Positions 241 to 12,930 of a stretch of DNA of 30,940 bases are shown here, piece after piece. Both the position numbers and the translations under genes were made by a program. Under the pieces are notes generated by a model. The model was not told where the DNA came from, did not search any database, and saw only the letters and a list, made by a program, of their open reading frames with translations. Each line of letters starts with the position of its first letter. The first letter of the stretch is position 1. Source of the DNA: a virus (lineage: Duplodnaviria; Heunggongvirae; Uroviricota; Caudoviricetes); IMG/VR virus record IMGVR_UViG_2684622670_000017; one strand, given 5' to 3'.

Positions 241-1251
241 TCAAACCGTTAAACCTCCCTTTAGCGGGTTTAATGCTACTGCGTTTTGCAGGTAATCAGG
301 TGCAAGGTGCGCGTAGGCCATCGTCTGCTGAATGCTTGCGTGTCCGAGAATCTGTTGCAACGCAATAATATTGCCCCCGTTCATCATGAAATGGCTTGCG
401 AAGGTATGGCGCAGGATATGGGTTGCCTGATTGGGTGGGATATCAGGTTTTACTCTGCGTAAAATTCCACAAAACTTCTCATAATCGACCTTGAACAATT
501 TAGCGCTGGCCTCCTCTTTAACTTTCTTCTCCAGTTCCTCAGAAATCGGCACGGTTCGCTTTTTACCGTTTTTGGTTTTCAGGAAGGTAACCCTACAACT
601 TGTAATCTGTGCTGGTTTTAGCGTGGCAACTTCCGTCCATCTTCCTCCAGTGCTCAGACATAAAAGCGCGACAAGTAAGTCATCACCAGTCAAAACATTT
701 AACAGTTTTTTGATTTCTGCTTTTTCCAGGAACGTCATTTCCGGGTTGGCTTCCGCCAGTGGCGGCAGTCCGTGAATCGGATGTTGCCCGGAAAACTCAT
801 CTAGCTGGATTAGCTTGGTGAACATGCCCGATAAGCGGTACATGTCACGATTTATCGTCGCCGCGCTGATGCCATCGCGTAGACGAGCAGAGCGGTAATC
901 CATCAGGCATTTTTTATTTAACCTGCTGACCTGTATGTCACCCAATCCGCTGATGGTTTTGCGCAAATGCCCTCGCTCTTTTTCTCCGTGTTCGTGATTC
1001 TGGCCGTGATACTTCCACCATGCCTCTAACAGCTCTGACAGGGAGCGGCGGTCTGTTCGCTGGCCTGCCCATTCTTTCTGGCTGGCGTTGGCGATTGTGT
1101 ACCGCTCAAATGCCACCGCCTCAGCTTTTCTTTCAAACTTCCTGCGGATGCGTTTTCCGTCGCGACCGCGAGGTCTAATGTCCACTTCATAGCGACCATC
1201 ATCGAGCTTCTTAATTGACATAAGAAAGCCCTCCGGCGCTGTACTCACCAT
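241..1251 (-). CDS. int: Tyrosine site-specific integrase (P2 Int-like)
   Basis: 336 aa. C-terminal catalytic region has the tyrosine-recombinase pattern (..ATHILRHTFASHF..GHASIQQTMAYAHL..). Position and orientation match P2 int, co-directional with and downstream of C. Confidence 0.93.
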   Translation of the reverse strand: MVSTAPEGFLMSIKKLDDGRYEVDIRPRGRDGKRIRRKFERKAEAVAFERYTIANASQKEWAGQRTDRRSLSELLEAWWKYHGQNHEHGEKERGHLRKTISGLGDIQVSRLNKKCLMDYRSARLRDGISAATINRDMYRLSGMFTKLIQLDEFSGQHPIHGLPPLAEANPEMTFLEKAEIKKLLNVLTGDDLLVALLCLSTGGRWTEVATLKPAQITSCRVTFLKTKNGKKRTVPISEELEKKVKEEASAKLFKVDYEKFCGILRRVKPDIPPNQATHILRHTFASHFMMNGGNIIALQQILGHASIQQTMAYAHLAPDYLQNAVALNPLKGGLTV

Positions 1252-4030: not shown

Positions 4031-4302
4031 GTATTCGTATTGAAATTGGCGAACGTTATGTCGTTACCAGTGACAGCTTTCAGTTTATTCTCCACGAGAA
4101 AAAGAGAGCTGAAAGCGGTAAAAACGCCGGTCAGGAATGGCTGGCGGTGGTTGGTTATTACCCGAAATTAAGCCAGCTCGTTTCCGGCCTGATGCATCAC
4201 GATATTCTGACCGGAAGCGCAAAGTCTTTTGCTGATTTAAACGCGCAGGTTGAGCAACTCAGCAAGCGTTGTTCAGAGGCTTTTGGCTCATATGGCCGTT
4301 AA
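4027..4302 (+). CDS. Hypothetical early protein (P2 orf83-like by position)
   Basis: 91-aa ORF immediately upstream of and overlapping gene A. Confidence 0.5.
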   Translation: MSIRIEIGERYVVTSDSFQFILHEKKRAESGKNAGQEWLAVVGYYPKLSQLVSGLMHHDILTGSAKSFADLNAQVEQLSKRCSEAFGSYGR

Positions 4303-6601
4303 AGCCTCCGGGCGTTTTGTCCCTCCGTCAGCATTTGCTGCAGGCACCGGTAAGACGTTTACCGGTGCTTATGCATGGAACGCGCCACGCGAGGCTGTCG
4401 GGCGCGAAAGACCCCTTACACGTGACGAGATGCGTCAGGTGCAAGGTGTTTTATCCACGATTAACCGCCTGCCTTACTTTTTGCGCTCGCTGTTTACTTC
4501 ACGCTATGACTACATCCGGCGCAATAAAAGCCCGGTGCACGGGTTTTATTTCCTCACATCCACTTTTCAGCGTCGTTTATGGCCGCGCATTGAGCGCGTG
4601 AATCAGCGCCATGAAATGAACACCGACGCGTCGTTGCTGTTTCTGACAGAGCGTGACCACTATGCGCGTCTGCCGGGGATGAATGACAAGGAGCTGAAAA
4701 AGTTTGCCGCCCGTATCTCATCGCAGCTTTTCATGATGTATGGGGAACTCTGCGATGCCTGGGTGGATGCGCATGGCGAAAAAGAATCGCTGTTTACGGA
4801 TGAGGCGCAGGCGCATCTGTATGGTCATGTTGCTGGCGCTGCACGTGCTTTCAATATTTCCCCGCTTTACTGGAAAAAATACCGTAAAGGACAGATGACC
4901 ACGAGGCAGGCATATTCTGCCATTGCCCGTCTGTTTAACGATGAGTGGTGGACTCATCAGCTTAAAGGCCAGCGTATGCGCTGGCATGAGGCGTTATTGA
5001 TAGCTGTCGGGGAGGTCAATAAAGACCGTTCTCCTTATGCCAGTAAACATGCCATTCGTGATGTGCGTGCGCGCCGTCAGGCAAATCTGGAGTTTCTTAA
5101 ATCGTGTGACCTTGAAAACAGGGAAACCGGCGAACGCATCGACCTTATCAGTAAGGTGATGGGCAGTATTTCTAATCCTGAAATTCGCCGGATGGAGCTG
5201 ATGAACACCATTGCCGGTATTGAGCGTTACGCCGCCGCAGAGGGTGATGTGGGGATGTTTATCACGCTGACCGCGCCGTCAAAGTATCACCCGACACGTC
5301 AGGTCGGAAAAGGCGAAAGTAAAACCGTCCAGCTTAATCACGGCTGGAATGATGAGGCATTTAATCCGAAGGATGCGCAGCGTTATCTCTGCCGTATCTG
5401 GAGCCTGATGCGCACGGCATTCAAGGATAATGATTTACAGGTCTACGGTTTGCGAGTCGTCGAGCCACACCACGACGGAACGCCGCACTGGCATATGATG
5501 CTTTTTTGTAATCCACGCCAGCGTAACCAGATTATCGAAATCATGCGTCGCTACGCGCTCAAAGAGGATGGCGACGAAAGAGGAGCTGCGCGAAACCGTT
5601 TTCAGGCAAAACACCTTAACCGGGGCGGTGCTGCGGGATATATCGCGAAATACATTTCAAAAAACATCGACGGCTATGCACTGGATGGTCAGCTCGATAA
5701 CGATACCGGCAGGCAGCTGAAAGACACCGCCGCGGCTGTTACCGCATGGGCGTCAACGTGGCGCATCCCGCAATTTAAAACGGTTGGCCTGCCGACAATG
5801 GGGGCTTACCGTGAACTACGCAAATTGCCTCGCGGCGTCAGTATTGCTGATGAGTTTGACGAACGCGTCGAGGCTGCACGCGCTGCCGCAGACAGTGGTG
5901 ATTTTGCGTTGTATATCAGCGCGCAGGGTGGGGCAAATGTTCCGCGCGATTGTCAGACTGTCAGGGTTGCCCGTAGTCCGTCGGATGAAGTTAACGAGTA
6001 CGAGGAAGAAGTCGAGAGAGTGGTCGGCATTTACGCGCCGCATCTCGGCGCGCGTCATATTCATATCACCAGAACGACGGACTGGCGCATTGTTCCGAAA
6101 GTGCCGGTCGTTGAGCCTTTGACTTTAAAAAGCGGCATCGCCGCGCCTCGGAGTCCTGTCAATAACTGTGGAAAGCTCACCAGTGGTGATACTTCGTTAC
6201 CGGCTCCCACACCTTCTGAACACGCCGCAGCAGTGCTTAATCTGGTTGATGACGGTGTTATCGAATGGAATGACCCGGAGGTCGTGAGGGCGCTCAGGGG
6301 CGCATTAAAACACGACCTGATAACACCAAACCGTCAGCAAAGAAACGGAAGCCCGTTAAAACCGCATGAAATAGCACCATCGGCCAGACTGACCAGGTCG
6401 GAACGAATGCAAATTACCCGTATCCGCGTTGACCTTGCTCAGAACGGTATCAGGCCGCAGCGATGGGAGCTTGAGGCGCTGGCGCGTGGCGCGATCGTAA
6501 ATTATGACGGGAAACAATTTACGTATCCGGTTGCTGATGAGTGGCCGGGATTTTTACAAACAGAAATTGTTTTTGGGATTAATAAGTTATCTCTAAGCTA
6601 A
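4292..6601 (+). CDS. A: Rolling-circle replication initiator endonuclease (P2 gpA)
   Basis: Large ORF with HUH-type metal-binding motif (TPHWHMMLF) and paired active-site tyrosines (GYIAKYISKN). Start set at the internal MAVKASGRF Met in frame with ORF 4250..6601; size matches P2 A (about 760 aa). Confidence 0.9.
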   Translation: MAVKASGRFVPPSAFAAGTGKTFTGAYAWNAPREAVGRERPLTRDEMRQVQGVLSTINRLPYFLRSLFTSRYDYIRRNKSPVHGFYFLTSTFQRRLWPRIERVNQRHEMNTDASLLFLTERDHYARLPGMNDKELKKFAARISSQLFMMYGELCDAWVDAHGEKESLFTDEAQAHLYGHVAGAARAFNISPLYWKKYRKGQMTTRQAYSAIARLFNDEWWTHQLKGQRMRWHEALLIAVGEVNKDRSPYASKHAIRDVRARRQANLEFLKSCDLENRETGERIDLISKVMGSISNPEIRRMELMNTIAGIERYAAAEGDVGMFITLTAPSKYHPTRQVGKGESKTVQLNHGWNDEAFNPKDAQRYLCRIWSLMRTAFKDNDLQVYGLRVVEPHHDGTPHWHMMLFCNPRQRNQIIEIMRRYALKEDGDERGAARNRFQAKHLNRGGAAGYIAKYISKNIDGYALDGQLDNDTGRQLKDTAAAVTAWASTWRIPQFKTVGLPTMGAYRELRKLPRGVSIADEFDERVEAARAAADSGDFALYISAQGGANVPRDCQTVRVARSPSDEVNEYEEEVERVVGIYAPHLGARHIHITRTTDWRIVPKVPVVEPLTLKSGIAAPRSPVNNCGKLTSGDTSLPAPTPSEHAAAVLNLVDDGVIEWNDPEVVRALRGALKHDLITPNRQQRNGSPLKPHEIAPSARLTRSERMQITRIRVDLAQNGIRPQRWELEALARGAIVNYDGKQFTYPVADEWPGFLQTEIVFGINKLSLS

Positions 6602-6723
6602 GACGCTCAAAGCAAGAGATTATTTTACTGTACGTAGCCATCTGGAATTGTGGCTGTGTTAAAACGCTCGAGATTTTTTGGATATCCAGTTATACTCCGC
6701 TTAGAAATCATTCGGAGACTAAG
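6602..6723 (+). promoter_or_regulatory. Putative promoter / 5' leader of the methyltransferase gene
   Basis: AT-rich intergenic region with a TATACT -10-like hexamer and an inverted repeat CTCCG..(13 nt)..CGGAG overlapping the GGAG ribosome-binding site before the 6724 ATG. Confidence 0.3.
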
Positions 6724-7770
6724 ATGGCGGTAAAAGTTGTTGATCTTTTTTGCGGTGCTGGCGGTTTAACGCACGGCTTACATTTGGCCGGATTGGACGT
6801 TGTCGCAGGCATTGATTTAGAAGGTGAGTGTCGTGTTGCATACGAAAGCAATAATGATGCACTTTTTATTGAAAAAGATATATCTCTGGTGACAAAAGAT
6901 GAAATCGAAAATCTTTTTGAAGGGGCAAGTGTTAAAGTATTGGCTGGATGTGCACCTTGTCAGCCATTTTCTAAATATACTCAGGGAAAAGATAAAAAAA
7001 ATGATAAAAAGTGGCCGTTATTATATGAGTTTGAACGTTTAATAAAAGACACGAAACCAGAAATAGTTACAATGGAAAACGTTCCTGATGTGACAAAACA
7101 TTCTGTCTATGATGATTTTTATAATACCTTAATAGCATTGGGTTATTATGTTTGGGCAAATAAGATTGAATGTGTAGATTTTGAGGTTCCGCAAAACAGA
7201 GTGAGGCATGTATTACTCGCATCTAAATTTGCGCCGATTTCTCTGATGAAACCACAAACATCGGTAAAGCTGACAGTTAGGGATTGCATTGGTAATTTAC
7301 CTTCGATTGAAGCGGGACAAGCAGATCCAAAAGACCCTCTCCATAAGGCGAGTAGATTGAGTGAAATTAATCTCAAACGTATTCTACATTCAAAACCGGG
7401 GGGGACATGGAGGGATTGGCCTGCTGAATTAATCGCTTCATGTCATGCCAAGAAAAGTGGGCAGGGATATGCCAGTGTTTATGGTCGTATGTCTTGGGAT
7501 AAACCGAGTCCAACGATAACTACACTTTGTTATGGTTTTGGTAATGGACGTTTTGGTCATCCCGAGCAGCATCGTGCAATCTCACTTAGGGAAGCAGCAT
7601 TACTTCAAACGTTTCCTGTTACATATTCATTTACCCAACCGGGCGAGCCGATCAAAATGAAAAATGTCGGGCGTATGATAGGTAATGCTGTTCCTGTAAA
7701 CTTAGGTAAAGCGATTGGTCTTTCAATAGTACATCATTTGAAAGAGTTTCACCCCGCCGCTCTTAAATAA
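6724..7770 (+). CDS. DNA (cytosine-5)-methyltransferase
   Basis: 348 aa with the canonical C5-MTase motifs: I DLFCGAGG (AdoMet binding), IV GCAPCQPFS (catalytic Cys; nt about 6955..6963), VI TMENVPD, VIII QNRVRHVLL, and C-terminal IGNAVPV. AT-rich codon usage unlike the phage backbone. Confidence 0.92.
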   Translation: MAVKVVDLFCGAGGLTHGLHLAGLDVVAGIDLEGECRVAYESNNDALFIEKDISLVTKDEIENLFEGASVKVLAGCAPCQPFSKYTQGKDKKNDKKWPLLYEFERLIKDTKPEIVTMENVPDVTKHSVYDDFYNTLIALGYYVWANKIECVDFEVPQNRVRHVLLASKFAPISLMKPQTSVKLTVRDCIGNLPSIEAGQADPKDPLHKASRLSEINLKRILHSKPGGTWRDWPAELIASCHAKKSGQGYASVYGRMSWDKPSPTITTLCYGFGNGRFGHPEQHRAISLREAALLQTFPVTYSFTQPGEPIKMKNVGRMIGNAVPVNLGKAIGLSIVHHLKEFHPAALK

Positions 7771-8468
7771 GCCTGAGTATCAAGATAAGTTTGTATATTT
7801 TCAAGGATGCAGTTGAGATAATGAAAAACTTCATCCTTCATTTCTGTTAGTGTATCAATAGATGTATCTCTGCCTTTGTTTCTAAATGATTCAGAACCAT
7901 GAGCAAGGTCGTTTCTGGCCTTTTTTATTGGAAGTAAATTGCAACCATTTCGCGTTATTTCTGAATCTGTATCTGCTGAGAAGCCATATTTTTCAGCGAC
8001 TTCTCTAATTTTTCTAGCATCAACATTTCCAGAAAATAACGGATTTTTATTTGATTGGATAAGTTTTTTGTGAGCGTTTAGCCACTCTTTAAATATAACT
8101 TTTGCAATGTTCCCTTGTGAGAAATCTATTTTCCCATTTGGTGATTGTAAACTATGAAATGCTACTCTTGTAAGGTTTTCATTTACAGTGTCTGCACATA
8201 ATGATTCATTAGACATTAAAACATTATGAATGTCTTCTATTGCATTGGAAATGGTTGCTTCAATGAGATTGTACAATATAATAAATGCATTAGCCTTTAA
8301 AATATGAGTCATATCAATATCAATGGGTTGTTGTATAGGCGCATCGCTTGTATTATCTTTATAGACTAGAGATGGTTTTTTGTTTATTAGTAACTGAATG
8401 AATGAGAAGTATTCATTAATATCTTGCATTCTTTCTTGGAAAAGAATTTTACTTGTCATCTCCTCCAT
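7749..8468 (-). CDS. HEPN-like protein with Rx4HG motif (putative nuclease effector; resembles the MAE_28990/Swt1-like HEPN group)
   Basis: 239 aa. Conserved-looking ARNDLAHGSESF near the C-terminus (R185..H190, nt about 7899..7917) fits the HEPN Rx4-6H signature. Second gene of a minus-strand operon, 10 nt after the DUF262 gene; AT-rich. Confidence 0.6.
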   Translation of the reverse strand: MEEMTSKILFQERMQDINEYFSFIQLLINKKPSLVYKDNTSDAPIQQPIDIDMTHILKANAFIILYNLIEATISNAIEDIHNVLMSNESLCADTVNENLTRVAFHSLQSPNGKIDFSQGNIAKVIFKEWLNAHKKLIQSNKNPLFSGNVDARKIREVAEKYGFSADTDSEITRNGCNLLPIKKARNDLAHGSESFRNKGRDTSIDTLTEMKDEVFHYLNCILENIQTYLDTQAYLRAAG

Positions 8469-8478
8469 TTACTTGGCC

Positions 8479-9624
8479 TCACTCCATATTTTCATCTTCA
8501 TCTTCATCTTCGTCGACAATATTTTCTGGAATGTCTTTCCCAAGCAACTTGTTTTTTACATATTCAATGCGTGCTTTAACTTTGGGTTTAGAGTTGCTGG
8601 CATCTGAACGTGTGTGCGTGATAAACTCTTTCGAGTTGATCCAGTCATCAATATTTTTAGGAACTAAATTGGGTTCTTCCTCCAGTGCTAATGTTGCACC
8701 GACGGCAAGAGCTTCGAAACGAATCCTAGGAACAGTGGTGGCGTTTTTCACCTTTCTGAAACCATTTGGGAAATGTGTATTAATGAATTGGCACATTTTA
8801 TGAAATTTTTCCGCCAGCATAGCTGCGTTTTCATCTGTATATTCGGCATTTTTACGTTTTAAATAGGTTGTAAGAAATTCATCAACGCTTTTTCTGAAAT
8901 CAAGATATTCTTCAGTGTAGGCAAAGTAGCGTAGTGCCAATTCTGGATATTCAGAGCGACGTTTTCTTGCATCTCCCAAAGGACAGATGCTATGAAATAG
9001 AGGATCTTCGGAAATTTCATTGATAAATGCAAGGAATGGCCCATCATGGCTACCTTGCCGTTGTTCCATTGTTGTTAGTTTTTTTCCGCCAGTATTCAGA
9101 CGGTCAAAAATTTCCCTTCTTGTCTCTTCGTCACAATGTTCTGTAAGTTCAATCATTCGAATAGTTTTTCTATCAAAACGTAGGCGACGGGGAGTACTGA
9201 AATCAGAATATTTAAAACCATTGGCTGTGACTAATTTCTGCAGGCCTTCAAGAGTTAGTTTGTTATTGGTAAATTGGTGTAGGGTTCTTATTCGTTGGCT
9301 ACCGTCAACAATTTCAAGTCTACCTTCATTTTCACCTGAACCAATATCGGCAACGAATATGTAAGGTATAGGAAGATTTAAAAGCAGAGATTCAATGAAA
9401 CGGGATTTTTGCTTGTTGTTCCAGATAAACTCCCTTTGGTAGTCAGGTATAAAAAGCTCTGCCTCATCTTCTTCAAGACCATTCTGAAATTTGTCCACAA
9501 TAACACTTATCGGGAACTCACGTATTTCATGGTCAGTGATTTTTTGCATTTCAACTATGCTTTGATCTAAAAGCTCCTTTTCTTCTTTAGTTTTTGGGGT
9601 ATGTTCTGCTTTTTTTCTCGCCAT
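8479..9624 (-). CDS. DUF262 (ParB/Srx-like, GmrS-type) domain protein
   Basis: 381 aa. N-terminal DUF262 signatures FIPDYQREFIW and EIVDGSQRIRTL (DGQQR-type). No HNH/DUF1524 His-Me motif seen in the C-terminal half. Ends in an acidic tail DEDEDEDENME. Confidence 0.8.
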   Translation of the reverse strand: MARKKAEHTPKTKEEKELLDQSIVEMQKITDHEIREFPISVIVDKFQNGLEEDEAELFIPDYQREFIWNNKQKSRFIESLLLNLPIPYIFVADIGSGENEGRLEIVDGSQRIRTLHQFTNNKLTLEGLQKLVTANGFKYSDFSTPRRLRFDRKTIRMIELTEHCDEETRREIFDRLNTGGKKLTTMEQRQGSHDGPFLAFINEISEDPLFHSICPLGDARKRRSEYPELALRYFAYTEEYLDFRKSVDEFLTTYLKRKNAEYTDENAAMLAEKFHKMCQFINTHFPNGFRKVKNATTVPRIRFEALAVGATLALEEEPNLVPKNIDDWINSKEFITHTRSDASNSKPKVKARIEYVKNKLLGKDIPENIVDEDEDEDENME

Positions 9625-9763
9625 GAGCTTATTATCCTACTATGCGTGTGATTGCATTAAATTGCATGTTAAACAAAAGCATAATCTATATCAGTCAATC
9701 AGCCAGTGGCAAGGTGTTGTGATTACAATGCAACTGCATTAGAACCGACTCATGAAGCGGGCG

Positions 9764-9782
9764 GGCGAGGCGGGGAAAGCAC
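9764..9782. other. cos: cos site: 19-nt P2-type cohesive end
   Basis: Exact sequence GGCGAGGCGGGGAAAGCAC, which I recall as the P2 cohesive end; it lies just upstream of the portal/terminase genes, as expected. Confidence 0.8.
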
Positions 9783-9950
9783 TGCGCGCTGGCGGTGGTG
9801 CTGATTTTATTTTTTCAGCGTCTGAGCGCGTCGTGATGGCGTTTAGATTGTTCGCCGGGGCGTTGGTGTGTCTGCGGGATGTTTTGTGCGGTGGTGAGCG
9901 TGTGAGGGCGTGATGGCGGGTTGTAAAAAGCCGCCCGTAGGCGGCGATGT

Positions 9951-10985
9951 TCAGCCGTTGTCAGTGTCCAGTGAGTAGTTTTTAAAGCGGATGACCTCCT
10001 GACCGAGCCAGCCGTTTATCTCGCGGATCCTGTCCTGTAGCGGGATAAGCTCATTGCGGACAAAGACCTTTGCCACTTTCTCAATATCACCCAGCGACCC
10101 GACGTTCTCCGGCTTGCCGCCCATCAACTGAAAGGGGATGCGGTGCGCGTCCAGCAGGTCAGCGGCGCTGGCTTTTTTGATATTAAAAAAATCGTCCTTC
10201 GTTGCCACTTCACTGAGCGGGATAATTTTAATGCCGTCGGCTTTCCCCTGTGGGGCATAGAGAAACAGGTTTTTAAAGTTGTTGCGGCCTTTCGACTTGA
10301 CCATGTTTTCGCGGAGCATTTCGATATCGTTGCGATCCTGCACGGCATCAGTGACGTACATGATGTATCCGGCATGTGCGCCATTTTCGTAATACTTGCG
10401 GCGGAACAGCGTGGCCGACTCATTCAGCCAGGCAGAGTTAAGGGCGCTGAGATATTCCGGCAGGCCGTACAGCTCCTGATTAATATCCGGCTCCAGCAGG
10501 TGAAACACGGAGCCGGGCGCGAAGGCTGTCGGCTCGTTGAAGGACGGCACCCACCAGTAAACATCCTCCTCCACGCCACGACGGGTATATTTGGCCGGTG
10601 AGGTTTCCAGTCTGATGACCTTACCGGTGGTGCTGTAACGCTTTTCCAGAAACGCATTACCGAACACCAGAAAATCCAGCACAAAGCGGCTGAAATCCTG
10701 CTGGGAAAGCCACGGGTGCGGGATAAACGTTGAAGCCAGAATATTACGTTTGACGTAAATCGGTGAGCTGTGATGCACGGCAGCACGCAGACTTTTTGCC
10801 AGACCGGTAAAGCTGACCGGTGGCTCATACCATCTGCCGTTACTGATGCACTCGACGTAATCCAGAATGTCACGGCGGTCGAGTACCGGCACCGGCTCAC
10901 CAAAGGTGAATGCCTCCATTTTCGGGGCGCTGGCGGTCATTTTTTTTGCCGCAGGTTGCGGTGTTTTCCCTTTTTTCTTGCTCAT
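9951..10985 (-). CDS. Q: Portal protein (P2 gpQ)
   Basis: 344 aa (same as P2 Q), adjacent to cos and the large terminase, minus strand as in P2. Confidence 0.92.
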   Translation of the reverse strand: MSKKKGKTPQPAAKKMTASAPKMEAFTFGEPVPVLDRRDILDYVECISNGRWYEPPVSFTGLAKSLRAAVHHSSPIYVKRNILASTFIPHPWLSQQDFSRFVLDFLVFGNAFLEKRYSTTGKVIRLETSPAKYTRRGVEEDVYWWVPSFNEPTAFAPGSVFHLLEPDINQELYGLPEYLSALNSAWLNESATLFRRKYYENGAHAGYIMYVTDAVQDRNDIEMLRENMVKSKGRNNFKNLFLYAPQGKADGIKIIPLSEVATKDDFFNIKKASAADLLDAHRIPFQLMGGKPENVGSLGDIEKVAKVFVRNELIPLQDRIREINGWLGQEVIRFKNYSLDTDNG

Positions 10986-12757
10986 CAGTAAAACTCCAGA
11001 ATGGTGGATGTCAGCGGGGTGCTGATACCGGCGGTGAGTGGCTCATTTAACAGGGCATGCATGGTCGCCCAGGCGAGGTCGGCGTGGCTGGCTTCCTCGC
11101 TGCGGCTGGCCTCATAGGTGGCGCTGCGTCCGCTGCTGGTCATGGTCTTGCGGATAGCCATGAACGAGCTGGTGATGTCGGTGGCGCTGACGTCATATTC
11201 CAGACAGCCACGGCGGATAACGTCTTTTGCCTTGAGCACCATTGCGGTTTTCATTTCCGGCGTGTAGCGGATATCGCGCGCGGCAGGATAGAACGAGCGC
11301 ACGAGCTGGAACACGCCGACACCGAGGCCGGTGGCATCAATACCGATGTATTCGACGTTGTATTTTTCGGTGAGTTTGCGGATGGATTCAGCCTGAGTGG
11401 CAAAGTCCATGCCTTTCCACTGGTGACGCTCAAGTATTCTGAATTTGCCACCGGCCACCACCGGCGGTGCCAGCACCACGCATCCGGCGCTGTCGCCACG
11501 GTGTGACGGGTCGTAACCAATCCATACCGGGCGGGAACCGAACGGATTTGCGGCAAAGGGTGCATAGTCTTCCCATTCTTCCAGCGTGTCGACCATGCAG
11601 CGTTGCAGCTCCTCGAACGGGAACACCGACGCCTTGTCGTCAACAAATTCACACATGAACAGGTTTTTAAAATCGTCGGCGCTGTTTTCGCGTTTAAGCT
11701 GCTCAATGTCGAACAGCGTGCAGCCACCTTTCAGGGCGTCCTCAATGGTGACAATCTGCCGCCACTGGCCGTCCGCACAGAGAAGCCCACCGGCAAGGGC
11801 GTTATGACTGACGTCGATTTCCACGCGTTCGGCGGCGCTGGCGCGCCCCCGGTTAAACAGTTCACCCGACCAGAACGGGTAGGCGTCGTGCGCCAGCGTG
11901 GACGGGGTGGAGAAATAGGTCGAGCGCAGGTGACTCTGTGAGGCCATACCTGATGCCACCTTACGCAGTACCTGAAAATTCGGGATCCAGAAAATCTCGT
12001 CGACGTACAGGTCGCCGTTATGGCTCTGTGCGGTGTTGGAGTTGGTGCCGAGAAAAATCAGTTTTGCGCCGTTATTGCCAAGGACAATCGGGTCACCGGT
12101 CAGGTCAACGTCAACCAGCCGGGCAAAGGCGATGATGTATTCACGGAACACATACGCCTGCGTTTTACTGGCCGACAGAAAAATCTGGTTATGGCCGGTT
12201 TTCAGGGCGCGCAGCAGCGCCTCGCGGGAAAAATAAAACGTCGCGCCAATCTGGCGGGATTTCAGGATATCGCGGATGCGGTGCTCAAGCCCGGCGCGAT
12301 ACCAGTGCAACTGATAGTCGAAAGACTGCTCAAAGAAAATCTGCTCCAGCTTTTCGATGGCCTCGTCACTGAAAAAATTCTTTTTCGGTTTGCGACGCCC
12401 GCCTTTGTTGCGGTTAGCGACGTTCGGATTAAGGTCTGCTTCGTTGCCGGTCTGACTGTAGCGGTTTACCCGTGCCAGTCGTTCAATCTGGCGTCCGAGC
12501 AGGTCAATTTCCTTGAAGTCACCGCCGGTTTTCTGCGGTTTGATGATGAGCTGGGTCAGCCGCGCTTCCAGACTCATTTCGACACGGCTGATGGGGGCAA
12601 CGCTGTCCCAGCCGTCGCGCTGTTTCCAGCTCTGCACCGTCGGGCGTTTCATCTGCAACATGGCGGCAATCTGCGGCACGGAAAACCCCTGCCAGTACAG
12701 CAGCGCCGCCTGACGACGCGGGTCGTGTAAAAGAGTGGTGTCTGTGGTGATGGTCAT
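10985..12757 (-). CDS. P: Terminase large subunit, ATPase (P2 gpP)
   Basis: About 590 aa from the internal Met MTITTDTTLL; position and length match P2 P; co-oriented with Q. Confidence 0.92.
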   Translation of the reverse strand: MTITTDTTLLHDPRRQAALLYWQGFSVPQIAAMLQMKRPTVQSWKQRDGWDSVAPISRVEMSLEARLTQLIIKPQKTGGDFKEIDLLGRQIERLARVNRYSQTGNEADLNPNVANRNKGGRRKPKKNFFSDEAIEKLEQIFFEQSFDYQLHWYRAGLEHRIRDILKSRQIGATFYFSREALLRALKTGHNQIFLSASKTQAYVFREYIIAFARLVDVDLTGDPIVLGNNGAKLIFLGTNSNTAQSHNGDLYVDEIFWIPNFQVLRKVASGMASQSHLRSTYFSTPSTLAHDAYPFWSGELFNRGRASAAERVEIDVSHNALAGGLLCADGQWRQIVTIEDALKGGCTLFDIEQLKRENSADDFKNLFMCEFVDDKASVFPFEELQRCMVDTLEEWEDYAPFAANPFGSRPVWIGYDPSHRGDSAGCVVLAPPVVAGGKFRILERHQWKGMDFATQAESIRKLTEKYNVEYIGIDATGLGVGVFQLVRSFYPAARDIRYTPEMKTAMVLKAKDVIRRGCLEYDVSATDITSSFMAIRKTMTSSGRSATYEASRSEEASHADLAWATMHALLNEPLTAGISTPLTSTILEFY

Positions 12758-12930
12758 GAATACCTCGCCGTGATGAATACACGGCAAGGCTACTGAGTCG
12801 CGCCCCGCGATTCGCTAAGGTGCTGTTGTGTCAGTGATAAGCCATCCGGGACTGATGGCGGAGGATGCGCATCGTCAGGAAACTGATGCCGACATGTGAC
12901 TCCTCTAATCACTATTCAGGACTCCTGACA
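12758..12930. promoter_or_regulatory. Divergent late promoter region (P2 PP / PO equivalent)
   Basis: Intergenic region between divergent P and O operons, where P2 has Ogr-dependent late promoters. Exact -10 and activator sites not resolved by eye. Confidence 0.5.

What the first reader, a model, noticed from the sequence alone, without database searches (positions are those of the whole stretch)
8479..9624. Stand-alone DUF262 protein without an HNH/DUF1524 nuclease domain, ending in a poly-acidic tail
N-terminal motifs DYQREFIW and DGSQR match the DUF262/ParB-like NTPase module seen in GmrSD, SspE and DndB-like proteins. The C-terminal 180 residues show no His-Me finger. The protein ends in DEDEDEDENME, encoded by a short GAA/GAT triplet repeat (about 8485..8520). 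This suggests DUF262 acts here as a sensor or NTPase partnered with a separate nuclease rather than as a fused restriction enzyme.
Basis: partly seen in the sequence, partly recalled or inferred. Interest (0 to 1): 0.6.

Follow-up and report, generated by a model that had tools for sequence, protein, structure and literature searches.

The report
DUF262–HEPN–methylase prophage defence cassette
The gene encodes a nuclease-less DUF262 (ParB-like) DNA sensor that, across many bacterial phyla, sits next to a HEPN ribonuclease gene and a DNA cytosine methylase gene, so it is most likely one part of an uncharacterised restriction-modification-like anti-phage system carried in the defence hotspot of a P2-type prophage.

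Summary
ORF 8479-9624 (minus strand, 381 aa) is a stand-alone DUF262 protein with intact QRxxxW, DGxQR and FxxxN motifs. Its C-terminal half is all-helical with no nuclease fold, and it ends in a disordered DEDEDEDENME tail encoded by a 21-bp hexamer repeat.

In 79 of 80 related loci from many phyla, a MAE_28990-family HEPN gene with an invariant Rx4H motif follows on the same strand.

A C5 cytosine methyltransferase (window 6724-7770) is adjacent in about 70 of 80 loci, in two different gene orders. A MmeI-type methylase replaces it in at least four more. The three genes also co-diverge.

The acidic tail is lineage-specific, not a family trait.

The island lies in the P2 gpA-portal defence hotspot. 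The closest validated relative is PD-T4-2 (DUF262+HEPN, active against T4), which was cloned and tested without a methylase. The ParB+MAE_28990+methylase operon appears as one table line in a 2013 computational survey, and no experiments were found.

Verdict: a new variant of a known kind, of moderate interest. It is unresolved whether the methyl mark blocks the system or licenses it.

The parts
8479..9624 (-). Gene for the stand-alone DUF262 protein (381 aa): ParB-DUF262 NTPase/sensor domain, helical ParBDB-like domain and acidic tail. It is the first gene of the DUF262-HEPN pair.
   Evidence: ORF, translation. Pfam PF03235 E=4.7e-28. PADLOC NsnA E=4.9e-55 over residues 31-358 and PD-T4-2_A E=9.2e-35 over 59-356. 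RefSeq WP_021560113.1.
9055..9537 (-). ParB/sulfiredoxin-fold DUF262 domain (about residues 30-190). It carries motif I Y62-Q63-R64...W68, motif II D107-G108-S-Q110-R111 (the predicted NTP-binding centre) and motif III F173-x-R175-x-N177.
8530..9054 (-). All-helical C-terminal domain (about residues 191-365). It corresponds to the 'ParBDB' DNA-binding domain described for NsnA, SspE and GmrSD. Invariant patches are P299-R300-x-R302-F-E304 and S340-D341-x-S343-N344-S345-x-P347. It is not a nuclease fold.
   Evidence: DSSP on the model shows only helices from 185 to 361. The PADLOC NsnA profile aligns through residue 358. Conserved residues are listed. No nuclease hit appears. The ParBDB description is in PMC12065111.
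8482..8514 (-). Acidic tail DEDEDEDENME (residues 371-381). It contains a perfect hexamer repeat (GATGAA x3.5) at 8491-8511. The tail is disordered and lineage-specific.
   Evidence: pLDDT<50 for residues 369-381. Tails in relatives vary in length and sequence and are often absent.
7749..8468 (-). Gene for the MAE_28990-family HEPN protein (239 aa from the first ATG; RefSeq starts it at 8459, giving 236 aa). It is the predicted RNase effector and starts 10 nt after the DUF262 stop codon.
   Evidence: Pfam PF18737 E=6.5e-18 over residues 10-234 and PF18735 E=6.8e-07. RefSeq names it 'MAE_28990/MAE_18760 family HEPN-like nuclease'. It lies downstream on the same strand in 79 of 80 related loci.
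7899..7916 (-). HEPN catalytic motif R185-N186-D-L-A-H190 (Rx4H).
   Evidence: R185, H190 and G191 are conserved in 78 of 78 relatives and N186 in 77 of 78.
6724..7770 (+). Gene for the C5 cytosine DNA methyltransferase (348 aa). It is convergent with the HEPN gene and the 3' ends overlap by 22 bp (7749-7770). All catalytic motifs are present: FxGxG at 9-14, PCQ at 78-80, ENV at 118-120, QxRxR at 157-161 and GNAV at 320-323.
   Evidence: Pfam PF00145 E=1.8e-54. NCBIfam TIGR00675 E=2.9e-36. Motif conservation. A related MTase is adjacent in about 70 of 80 loci.
7398..7404 (+). G7 homopolymer inside the methyltransferase ORF (codons P225-G226-G227). It is the only G or C run of 6 or more in the window. 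It is a site of length variation (G6, G7, G8) among near-identical copies.
6602..9707 (.). Low-GC island (30-39% against about 55% for the prophage backbone) between the replication gene gpA (4250-6601) and the conserved cos/portal region. This is P2 defence hotspot #1.
   Evidence: Composition. Flanking genes. Only window positions from about 9708 onward are conserved across more than 2000 E. coli records. The hotspot is described in PMC9519451 and PMC9122126.
9683..9712 (-). Weak sigma-70-like site (TTGCCA-18-TAGATT) upstream of the DUF262 start codon. It is a possible operon promoter, but the count of such sites is no higher than chance.
   Evidence: 9 sites found against 9.6 expected from shuffles.

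Best explanation
The ORF encodes the DNA-sensing NTPase subunit of a three-gene, restriction-modification-like anti-phage cassette. The cassette sits in the gpA-portal defence hotspot of a P2-type prophage.

Shown here:
- The protein is a ParB-fold DUF262 domain with an intact NTP-binding DGxQR centre, followed by a helical ParBDB-type domain, with no nuclease.
- Its gene is almost always followed by a MAE_28990-family HEPN gene with an intact Rx4H catalytic motif.
- The pair is almost always flanked by an active-looking DNA methyltransferase.
- The three genes co-diverge and travel together on prophages, Tn7-like elements and chromosomal islands across many phyla.

Inferred:
- The methyltransferase writes an m5C mark at its target sites on resident DNA.
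- The DUF262/ParBDB protein reads the modification state of DNA and couples it to an NTP-driven conformational switch. Related DUF262 domains do this for glucosyl-hmC (GmrSD), 5mC/5hmC (BrxU) and phosphorothioate (SspE).
- The switch is passed in trans to the HEPN partner, probably in a complex, since several relatives have overlapping stop and start codons.
- HEPN then cleaves RNA and stops phage growth, possibly at the cost of the infected cell.

Unresolved: either the mark prevents firing on self DNA (classical R-M or Dnd logic), or it licenses the sensor (Ssp-like logic).

The acidic tail is a disordered, lineage-specific appendage. At most it modulates DNA or partner binding.
For: Domains and motifs.

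Fold. The best matches are BrxU, SspE, sulfiredoxin and ParB, and the C-terminal half is all-helical.

HEPN partner: it lies directly downstream in 79 of 80 species-representative loci, and 1-4 nt overlaps appear in the gene calls. Rx4H is conserved in 78 of 78.

Methyltransferase linkage:
- 51 loci have a convergent Dcm-type MTase after HEPN, as in the window.
- 15 loci have it directly upstream on the same strand.
- L031, L032, L033 and L041 lack a Dcm-type gene. They carry a 1391-aa MmeI/Eco57I-type MTase upstream instead, adjacent in three of them and about 2 kb away in L031.
- The remaining loci without a detected MTase are truncated contigs.

Co-divergence: pairwise identities correlate at r=0.88 for DUF262-HEPN and r=0.68 for DUF262-MTase, with 0 of 999 permutations reaching the observed value.

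Mobility: the same cassette occurs in a second, about 76% identical, version at the same P2 hotspot, in Moraxella prophages and next to Tn7-like transposition genes.

Precedents: PD-T4-2 (a DUF262 protein plus a RiboL-PSP/MAE_28990-like HEPN) protects against T4 both natively and when cloned (PMC9519451). DUF262 acts as a modification sensor and NTP switch in GmrSD, BrxU and SspE (PMC10952713; PMC12065111). [quoted passage not shown]
Against: There is no biochemical or genetic test of this family, so every mechanistic step after 'the genes are linked' is inference.

PD-T4-2 was cloned as a two-gene fragment without a methylase. It defended K-12 with no reported toxicity. A DUF262-HEPN pair can therefore work without a cognate MTase.

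Two near-identical copies (G6 in CP027550, G8 in phage P24B2) and Neisseria weixii carry a frameshifted MTase beside intact DUF262 and HEPN genes. If these are real and not homopolymer sequencing errors, classical 'unmethylated self is lethal' logic is unlikely.

Co-divergence may reflect physical linkage alone.

The HEPN protein matches no PADLOC model.

The model's pTM is only 0.55 and Foldseek TM-scores are low (0.19-0.27). Domain-level fold assignment is sound, but the relative orientation of the domains is not.
Confidence: 0.6

Rival explanations
1. This is a PD-T4-2-type, modification-dependent (type IV-like) or abortive-infection pair. DUF262 senses foreign modified DNA, such as hmC or glucosyl-hmC of T-even phages, or another infection cue, and activates HEPN. 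The neighbouring methyltransferase is a functionally independent cargo gene, for example self-protection of the prophage against host restriction.
For: PD-T4-2 has the same two-protein architecture and works against T4 without a methylase (PMC9519451). GmrSD, BrxU and Dazbog DUF262 proteins recognise modified phage DNA. Copies with a frameshifted MTase keep intact DUF262 and HEPN genes.
Against: A DNA MTase is adjacent in essentially every evaluable locus of this family. It appears in two gene orders and with replacement by a different MTase class, and it co-diverges with DUF262. That pattern is not expected for an unrelated passenger gene. An m5C-reading type IV sensor beside an m5C writer would be self-targeting unless the specificities differ.
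Confidence: 0.2
2. The DUF262 protein is itself the restriction DNase (a 'ParB nuclease'), forming a type II-like R-M pair with the methyltransferase. HEPN is a second-line suicide RNase held in check by the R-M proteins, as PrrC is by EcoprrI.
For: Anantharaman et al. 2013 call the partner a 'ParB nuclease' and propose PrrC-like logic for HEPN domains embedded in R-M systems. The N-terminal domain matches a PADLOC 'Type II REase' profile weakly (E=8.7e-07). The convergent M/R gene order is typical of type II systems.
Against: The characterised DUF262 domains described in the papers read here (GmrSD, BrxU, SspE) are NTPases and sensors, and cleavage in those enzymes is done by a separate DUF1524 domain. 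The conserved residues here are those of the NTP-binding motifs. The REase-profile match covers only the ParB core.
Confidence: 0.12
3. The protein is not a defence factor. It is a ParB-like DNA-binding regulator or partition-type protein serving the prophage, or a regulator of the methyltransferase as DndB regulates dnd genes.
For: It has the ParB fold. DndB, a DUF262/ParB relative, is a transcriptional regulator. DndI and KorB appear among the fold hits.
Against: The gene is obligately paired with a catalytically intact HEPN toxin-type RNase. It lies in a hotspot that holds experimentally validated defence systems (PMC9519451, PMC9122126). Its closest profile matches are defence proteins. 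The island is absent from most P2-like phages, so it is not a core phage function.
Confidence: 0.04

Closest known systems
PD-T4-2 (Vassallo et al. 2022, E. coli ECOR65)
   Same: It is a two-gene operon: a stand-alone DUF262 protein of about 360 aa, followed by a HEPN protein of the RiboL-PSP/MAE_28990 clade (HHpred 97.8% and 96.9%). The window protein matches the PD-T4-2_A profile over residues 59-356 with E=9.2e-35. PD-T4-2 is also an E. coli system, and many systems from that screen lie in prophages (its own context was not retrieved).
   Different: PD-T4-2 spans only 1540 bp, so its HEPN is about 165 aa against 239 aa here. The window HEPN matches no PADLOC profile, including PD-T4-2_B, at E<=10. 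PD-T4-2 was cloned and is active without a methyltransferase. The window family is almost always methylase-linked. The window DUF262 protein scores higher against NsnA than against PD-T4-2_A.
ParB + MAE_28990 HEPN + DNA methylase operon (Anantharaman et al. 2013, Biol Direct, Table 1)
   Same: It has exactly the same three components. The Pfam family PF18737 that matches the window HEPN is named after the Microcystis prototype, and Microcystis loci are among the relatives found here (L076, L083).
   Different: It is only a one-line computational entry. No system name, mechanism, distribution figures or experiment were found, and no paper in the searchable library mentions PF18737 or HEPN_MAE_28990. 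The prophage-hotspot location and the MTase-class replacement are not described in the passages read.
Menshen NsnA (Millman et al. 2022; Li et al. 2025)
   Same: This is the best profile match (NsnA E=4.9e-55, near full length). It has the same ParB-DUF262 + ParBDB two-domain architecture and a proposed sensor role with an RNase effector in trans. Li et al. also raise the possibility that solitary methylases near Menshen let DUF262 target non-modified DNA.
   Different: Menshen requires the NsnB ATPase and the NsnC inPIN-nuclease effector. Neither is present in the window island, where a HEPN protein takes the effector position.
GmrSD / BrxU type IV restriction enzymes
   Different: GmrSD and BrxU carry a fused C-terminal DUF1524 His-Me nuclease, which is absent here. 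They act alone, target modified DNA and are not paired with a methyltransferase.
SspABCD-SspE phosphorothioate-sensing system
   Different: The modification is backbone sulfur, not m5C. The nuclease is a fused DUF1524 nickase, not a separate HEPN protein. Sequence similarity is limited to the motif I region (PADLOC SspE E about 2e-4).
PrrC-EcoprrI (HEPN anticodon nuclease embedded in an R-M system)
   Same: A HEPN RNase is genetically embedded with DNA-modification genes and is proposed to act as an abortive-infection effector.
   Different: PrrC is fused to an ABC-type NTPase and guards a complete type I R-M system. Here no conventional restriction endonuclease is present.

Membership tests
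DUF262 / GmrSD_N (PF03235) domain superfamily | Profile match above the gathering threshold, plus motifs QRxxxW, DGxQR and FxxxN | tested here: met
   99.1 bits against a 33.2-bit cut-off, E=4.7e-28. Motifs are at residues 63-68, 107-111 and 173-177.
GmrSD / BrxU type IV restriction enzymes | C-terminal DUF1524 (His-Me finger) nuclease domain fused to DUF262 | tested here: not met
PD-T4-2 | PD-T4-2_A-type DUF262 protein | tested here: met
   PADLOC PD-T4-2_A E=9.2e-35, residues 59-356 against profile positions 55-357 of 363.
PD-T4-2 | PD-T4-2_B-type HEPN protein encoded directly downstream | tested here: inconclusive
   A HEPN of the same Pfam clade (PF18737/PF18735) is directly downstream, and PD-T4-2B matches those same two families by HHpred. 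However, the window HEPN matches no PADLOC model at E<=10 and is about 70 aa longer.
PD-T4-2 | Protection against T4 by the two genes alone | not testable with these tools
   This needs a plaque assay.
Menshen (NsnABC) | NsnA-like ParB-DUF262 + ParBDB protein | tested here: met
   PADLOC NsnA E=4.9e-55, residues 31-358 against profile positions 41-377 of 385.
Menshen (NsnABC) | NsnB ATPase and NsnC effector genes directly downstream of NsnA | tested here: not met
   The island holds only the DUF262, HEPN and Dcm genes. No ATPase gene is present, and the HEPN protein has no NsnB or NsnC match.
ParB + MAE_28990 HEPN + DNA methylase operon (Anantharaman 2013) | All three components adjacent | tested here: met
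   DUF262 at 8479-9624, HEPN PF18737 at 7749-8468 and Dcm PF00145 at 6724-7770. The arrangement is conserved in about 70 of 80 loci.
Type II restriction-modification system | Methyltransferase with intact catalytic motifs | tested here: met
   FxGxG, PCQ, ENV, QxRxR and GNAV are present and conserved. PF00145 E=1.8e-54.
Type II restriction-modification system | Cognate restriction endonuclease of a recognised DNase fold (PD-(D/E)xK, HNH, GIY-YIG, PLD or half-pipe) | tested here: not met
   Neither partner has such a domain. The only link is a weak match of the ParB core to one PADLOC 'REase_II' profile (E=8.7e-07).
SspABCD-SspE | SspE-type protein with linked sspABCD phosphorothioation genes | tested here: not met
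   SspE profiles match only residues 50-81, with E about 2e-4. There are no ssp or dnd genes in the window.
HEPN RNase superfamily (partner protein) | Rx4-6H catalytic motif in a HEPN-profile match | tested here: met
   R185-x4-H190 is conserved in 78 of 78 relatives. PF18737 E=6.5e-18. RNase activity itself cannot be tested here.

The most novel reading that the evidence does not exclude
The cassette is a distinct class of modification-based immunity. A solitary m5C (or, in some lineages, MmeI-type) methyltransferase provides the self mark. A ParB-type NTP switch protein reads that mark on DNA. The response is RNA cleavage by a HEPN partner rather than DNA cleavage, making it an 'abortive R-M' hybrid. 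In the E. coli P2 version the methyltransferase would be phase-variable through a G7 tract. This would switch the immunity state without killing the lysogen, which implies Ssp-like licensing logic rather than classical restriction.
Probability: 0.3. Interest if true: 0.75.

Novelty: new variant of a known kind. Interest (0 to 1): 0.5.

Why it matters
Stand-alone DUF262 systems (PD-T4-2, Menshen, Dazbog) are validated defences whose mechanisms the literature read here describes as largely uncharacterised.

This family offers a tractable handle on what the DUF262/ParB switch reads. Its sensor is almost always linked to a writer of a defined DNA mark (m5C), so the ligand can be guessed and tested directly with methylated and unmethylated oligonucleotides.

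If the methyl mark controls a HEPN RNase through a ParB-type NTPase, restriction-modification logic would extend to an RNA-targeting, possibly abortive, output.

The family is also widespread. Relatives were found in 553 of about 185,600 species-representative genomes, across Proteobacteria, Cyanobacteria, Acidobacteria, Planctomycetes, Verrucomicrobia, Bacteroidota and Spirochaetes. It travels on prophages and next to Tn7-like transposition genes. PADLOC has no model that matches its HEPN component.

Tried and rejected

2. Membership in Menshen, despite the best profile hit to NsnA: rejected, because NsnB and NsnC are absent.

3. Acidic tail as a defining or functional family feature: rejected. 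The median tail in 75 relatives is 3 residues, and the tail is disordered in the model.

4. Sequence search of the DUF262 and HEPN proteins against PDB chains: uninformative. BrxU scored only E=0.84, the top hits were chance MHC matches, and the HEPN protein had no hit.

5. PADLOC and NCBIfam for the HEPN protein: no match, even at E<=10.

6. Literature search for PF18737/HEPN_MAE_28990, and for DUF262+HEPN+methyltransferase together: no experimental paper found. The main text of Rousset 2022 on P2 hotspots does not mention DUF262.

7. Attempt to retrieve PD-T4-2 itself for direct comparison and to check its native neighbours: failed. The accession cannot be fetched with these tools. A candidate E. 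coli phage locus (L095, a DUF262 protein plus a 216-aa protein beside the integrase) matched PD-T4-2_A only weakly (E=9.5e-14) and was dropped.

8. Promoter scan of the island: no more sites than expected from shuffles.

9. Inferring the MTase target sequence: not possible. The best solved relatives are eukaryotic DNMT1 catalytic domains (E about 4e-21) and M.HaeIII, which does not fix specificity.

10. A second structure prediction and a homologue search for the HEPN protein: not run. The Pfam match plus the invariant Rx4H motif were judged sufficient for the cost.
Full report
**Context.** The window is a P2-type (Peduovirus) prophage of Escherichia coli. It holds an integrase at 241-1251 (minus), the replication gene gpA at 4250-6601, the portal gene at 9951-10985 (minus), the terminase at 10985-12787 (minus), and then head, tail and tail-fibre genes. 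Between gpA and the portal gene lies an island (about 6602-9707) of 30-39% GC against about 55% for the backbone. This is the P2 'hotspot #1', known to hold old, tin and many recently validated defence systems (PMC9519451; PMC9122126).

Near-identical islands occur in three complete E. coli genomes and in phage P24B2. A version about 76% identical, with the same three genes, sits at the same site in four other E. coli genomes.

**Observation check.** The ORF at 8479-9624 (minus) encodes 381 residues.
- DYQREFIW is at residues 61-68, DGSQR at 107-111 and FDRLN at 173-177. These are the three DUF262 motifs defined in the literature.
- Pfam GmrSD_N/DUF262 matches residues 52-190 (E=4.7e-28) and nothing else matches.
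- The tail DEDEDEDENME (371-381) is encoded by 8482-8514 and contains a perfect hexamer repeat of 3.5 copies at 8491-8511.

**No hidden nuclease.**
- An AlphaFold2 model built on 37 relatives (mean pLDDT 80, pTM 0.55) has a mixed alpha/beta N-terminal domain. From residue 185 to 361 it has only helices, and the tail is disordered.
- Foldseek against the PDB gives ParB/Noc CTPases, BrxU, SspE, DndI, PadC, KorB and sulfiredoxin.
- No His-Me, PD-(D/E)xK, GIY-YIG or PLD fold appears, and no histidine is conserved in the C-terminal half.
- PADLOC's NsnA profile aligns over residues 31-358 (E=4.9e-55) and PD-T4-2_A over 59-356 (E=9.2e-35). The C-terminal half therefore corresponds to the helical 'ParBDB' DNA-binding domain described for NsnA, SspE and GmrSD (PMC12065111).
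- It carries two invariant patches, P299-R-x-R-F-E304 and S340-D-x-S-N-S-x-P347. Their role is unknown.

**The family.**
- 4522 clusters at 90% identity match with E<=1e-5.
- 195 cluster representatives at 50% identity match with E<=1e-30, and the listed full-length matches are about 340-420 aa, none long enough to carry a fused nuclease.
- 553 stretches in species-representative genomes encode a relative, at 48-63% identity across Gamma- and Betaproteobacteria, Cyanobacteria, Acidobacteria, Planctomycetes, Verrucomicrobia, Bacteroidota and Leptospira. Such conservation across phyla suggests horizontal spread.

**The acidic tail.** It is not a family trait. After the conserved LL361 the median tail is 3 residues, and only 19 of 75 tails are strongly acidic (alignment).

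**The nuclease partner.** Ten nucleotides downstream of the DUF262 stop begins a 239-aa ORF (7749-8468) that matches Pfam HEPN_MAE_28990 (E=6.5e-18) and HEPN_RiboL-PSP (E=6.8e-07).
- In 79 of the 80 best species-representative loci a homologue lies directly downstream on the same strand. The one exception is a contig cut 224 bp after the DUF262 match.
- In gene calls from Pseudomonas, Shewanella, Cytophagales and Rhodocyclaceae the two ORFs overlap by 1-4 nt. This is consistent with translational coupling.
- The motif R185-N-x-x-A-H190 is invariant (78 of 78).

**The third partner.** A 348-aa C5 cytosine methyltransferase gene (6724-7770, plus strand; PF00145 E=1.8e-54) converges on the HEPN gene, and the two overlap by 22 bp. 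It has all catalytic motifs. Across the 80 loci:
- 51 have a Dcm-type gene in this convergent position.
- 15 have it directly upstream on the same strand.
- A few have other nearby arrangements.
- L031, L032, L033 and L041 have no Dcm-type gene. They carry a 1391-aa MmeI/Eco57I-type methyltransferase upstream, immediately adjacent in three of them.
- The remaining loci without a detected MTase are cut by contig ends.

Pairwise identities co-vary (DUF262-HEPN r=0.88; DUF262-Dcm r=0.68), and none of 999 permutations reaches the observed values.

The same DUF262, HEPN and convergent Dcm arrangement is found next to the CI-type repressor of Moraxella catarrhalis prophages. It is also found beside Tn7-like transposition genes in Pseudomonas and Rhodocyclaceae.

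Linkage that survives changes of gene order, methylase class and vehicle indicates a functional unit rather than chance neighbours.

**What is known.**
- Anantharaman et al. [quoted passage not shown] They suggest PrrC-like suicide roles for HEPN domains embedded in R-M systems.
- Vassallo et al. (2022) validated PD-T4-2 from ECOR65. It is a DUF262 protein plus a small HEPN that HHpred assigns to the same RiboL-PSP/MAE_28990 clade. It protects against T4 both when cloned as a 1.5-kb two-gene fragment and in its native strain.
- Reviews and the 2025 Menshen analysis describe PD-T4-2, Dazbog and Menshen as largely uncharacterised DUF262 systems without DUF1524. The Menshen paper speculates that nearby solitary methylases might let DUF262 target unmodified DNA.
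- No paper in the searchable library mentions PF18737/HEPN_MAE_28990. The window HEPN matches no PADLOC model.

**Mechanism.**

Shown here:
- The domain composition and intact catalytic motifs of all three proteins.
- Their tight, mobile, co-diverging linkage.

Inferred:
- The MTase marks resident DNA with m5C.
- The DUF262/ParBDB protein reads that modification state and couples it to an NTP-dependent switch, as DUF262 does in GmrSD, BrxU and SspE.
- The switch controls the HEPN RNase in trans.

I cannot tell whether the mark blocks firing (classical R-M or Dnd logic) or licenses the sensor (Ssp-like logic).

**A poly-G tract in the MTase gene.** One observation bears on that open question. 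The only G or C run of 6 or more in the whole window is a G7 tract inside the MTase ORF (7398-7404). Among near-identical copies, the only indels inside the island fall there.
- G6 occurs in CP027550, which RefSeq flags as frameshifted.
- G8 occurs in phage P24B2, whose MTase is annotated as split.
- G7, or an intact 348-aa product, occurs in the window and six other copies.
- Neisseria weixii also has a frameshifted MTase beside intact partner genes.

If these variants are real, the MTase-off state is tolerated, which favours licensing logic or an independent MTase. They may equally be homopolymer sequencing errors.

**Rivals.**
- A PD-T4-2-like modification-dependent or abortive pair with an unrelated MTase (0.2). 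The near-universal linkage argues against it.
- DUF262 as the actual DNase, with HEPN as a backup suicide RNase (0.12). Characterised DUF262 domains are NTPase sensors, which argues against it.
- A non-defence ParB-like regulator (0.04).

**Verdict.** The finding is real and its core interpretation is right, but the idea of a nuclease-less DUF262 protein with a separate effector is already established. The analysis adds four points:
- The gene belongs to a widespread, conserved three-gene cassette of methylase, DUF262 and HEPN.
- PADLOC does not recognise the cassette's HEPN component.
- No experimental study of it was found.
- The cassette points to a testable ligand for the DUF262 switch.

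I rate it a new variant of a known kind, with interest 0.5.

Noticed in passing
window 7398-7404: A G7 homopolymer lies inside the cytosine methyltransferase ORF. It is the only G or C run of 6 or more in the 30.9-kb window. Near-identical copies elsewhere have G6 (CP027550, flagged as frameshifted) or G8 (phage P24B2, MTase split). These are the only indels inside the island. The cause is either slipped-strand phase variation of the MTase or homopolymer sequencing error.
   Followed up: partly
window 7749-7770: The methyltransferase and HEPN ORFs converge and overlap by 22 bp at their 3' ends. Convergent overlap also occurs in distant relatives (89 bp in L007, 55 bp in L009). This would allow transcriptional interference or antisense control.
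   Followed up: no
L002 5068-7964 (E. coli NZ_CP147056) and hits H5-H7: A second version of the same three-gene cassette, about 76% identical in nucleotides, occupies the same P2 hotspot in four other E. coli genomes. In L002 extra cargo genes (a DUF3850 protein and a hypothetical protein) lie between gpA and the MTase.
   Followed up: partly
L091 3228-6907 (Moraxella phage Mcat32) and Mcat24-31: Nine Moraxella catarrhalis prophages carry the same DUF262, HEPN and convergent Dcm cassette. It sits directly after a CI-type (HTH + S24 peptidase) repressor gene. The DUF262 protein is 45% identical to the window protein.
   Followed up: partly
L003 1-11358, L009 2533-12914: The cassette lies next to Tn7-like transposition genes (TnsB/TniB/TniQ/TnsE upstream in Pseudomonas; TnsA-like and TniB downstream in Rhodocyclaceae). 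In these loci it is accompanied by a 640-650-aa HATPase_c_3 protein, and in L009 also by a Vsr mismatch endonuclease. These may be accessory components.
   Followed up: no
L032 1779-5954 (also L031, L033, L041): In a sub-lineage the Dcm-type methylase is replaced by a 1391-aa MmeI/Eco57I-type (type IIL/BREX PglX-like) methyltransferase upstream of the DUF262 gene. It is adjacent in L032, L033 and L041 and about 2 kb away in L031.
   Followed up: partly
window 6724-7770: By sequence, the closest solved relatives of this prophage methyltransferase are eukaryotic DNMT1 catalytic domains (E about 4e-21, over residues 210-337). They score better than bacterial M.HaeIII or M.HhaI.
   Followed up: no
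L048 7229-8679 (Okeania sp.): The HEPN region downstream of the DUF262 gene is rearranged. There is one N-terminal fragment and two tandem copies of the C-terminal half, followed by an intact convergent MTase.
   Followed up: no
phage records H69-H80 (e.g. Escherichia phage Phi1 116520-116864): Many large lytic phages (Escherichia phages Phi1, MIZ2/3/6, Whisky, G2248 and G5211; Enterobacter phage EC-F2; Cronobacter GAP32; Caulobacter CcrPW) encode proteins about 29-33% identical to the DUF262 core (roughly residues 30-196). Their function was not examined.
   Followed up: no
window about 9708-9950: The stretch between the island and the portal gene is conserved at 93-98% in more than 2000 E. 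coli records. The linear P24B2 genome ends at window position about 9763. The DUF262 gene is therefore the last gene before the cos end of the phage chromosome.
   Followed up: no
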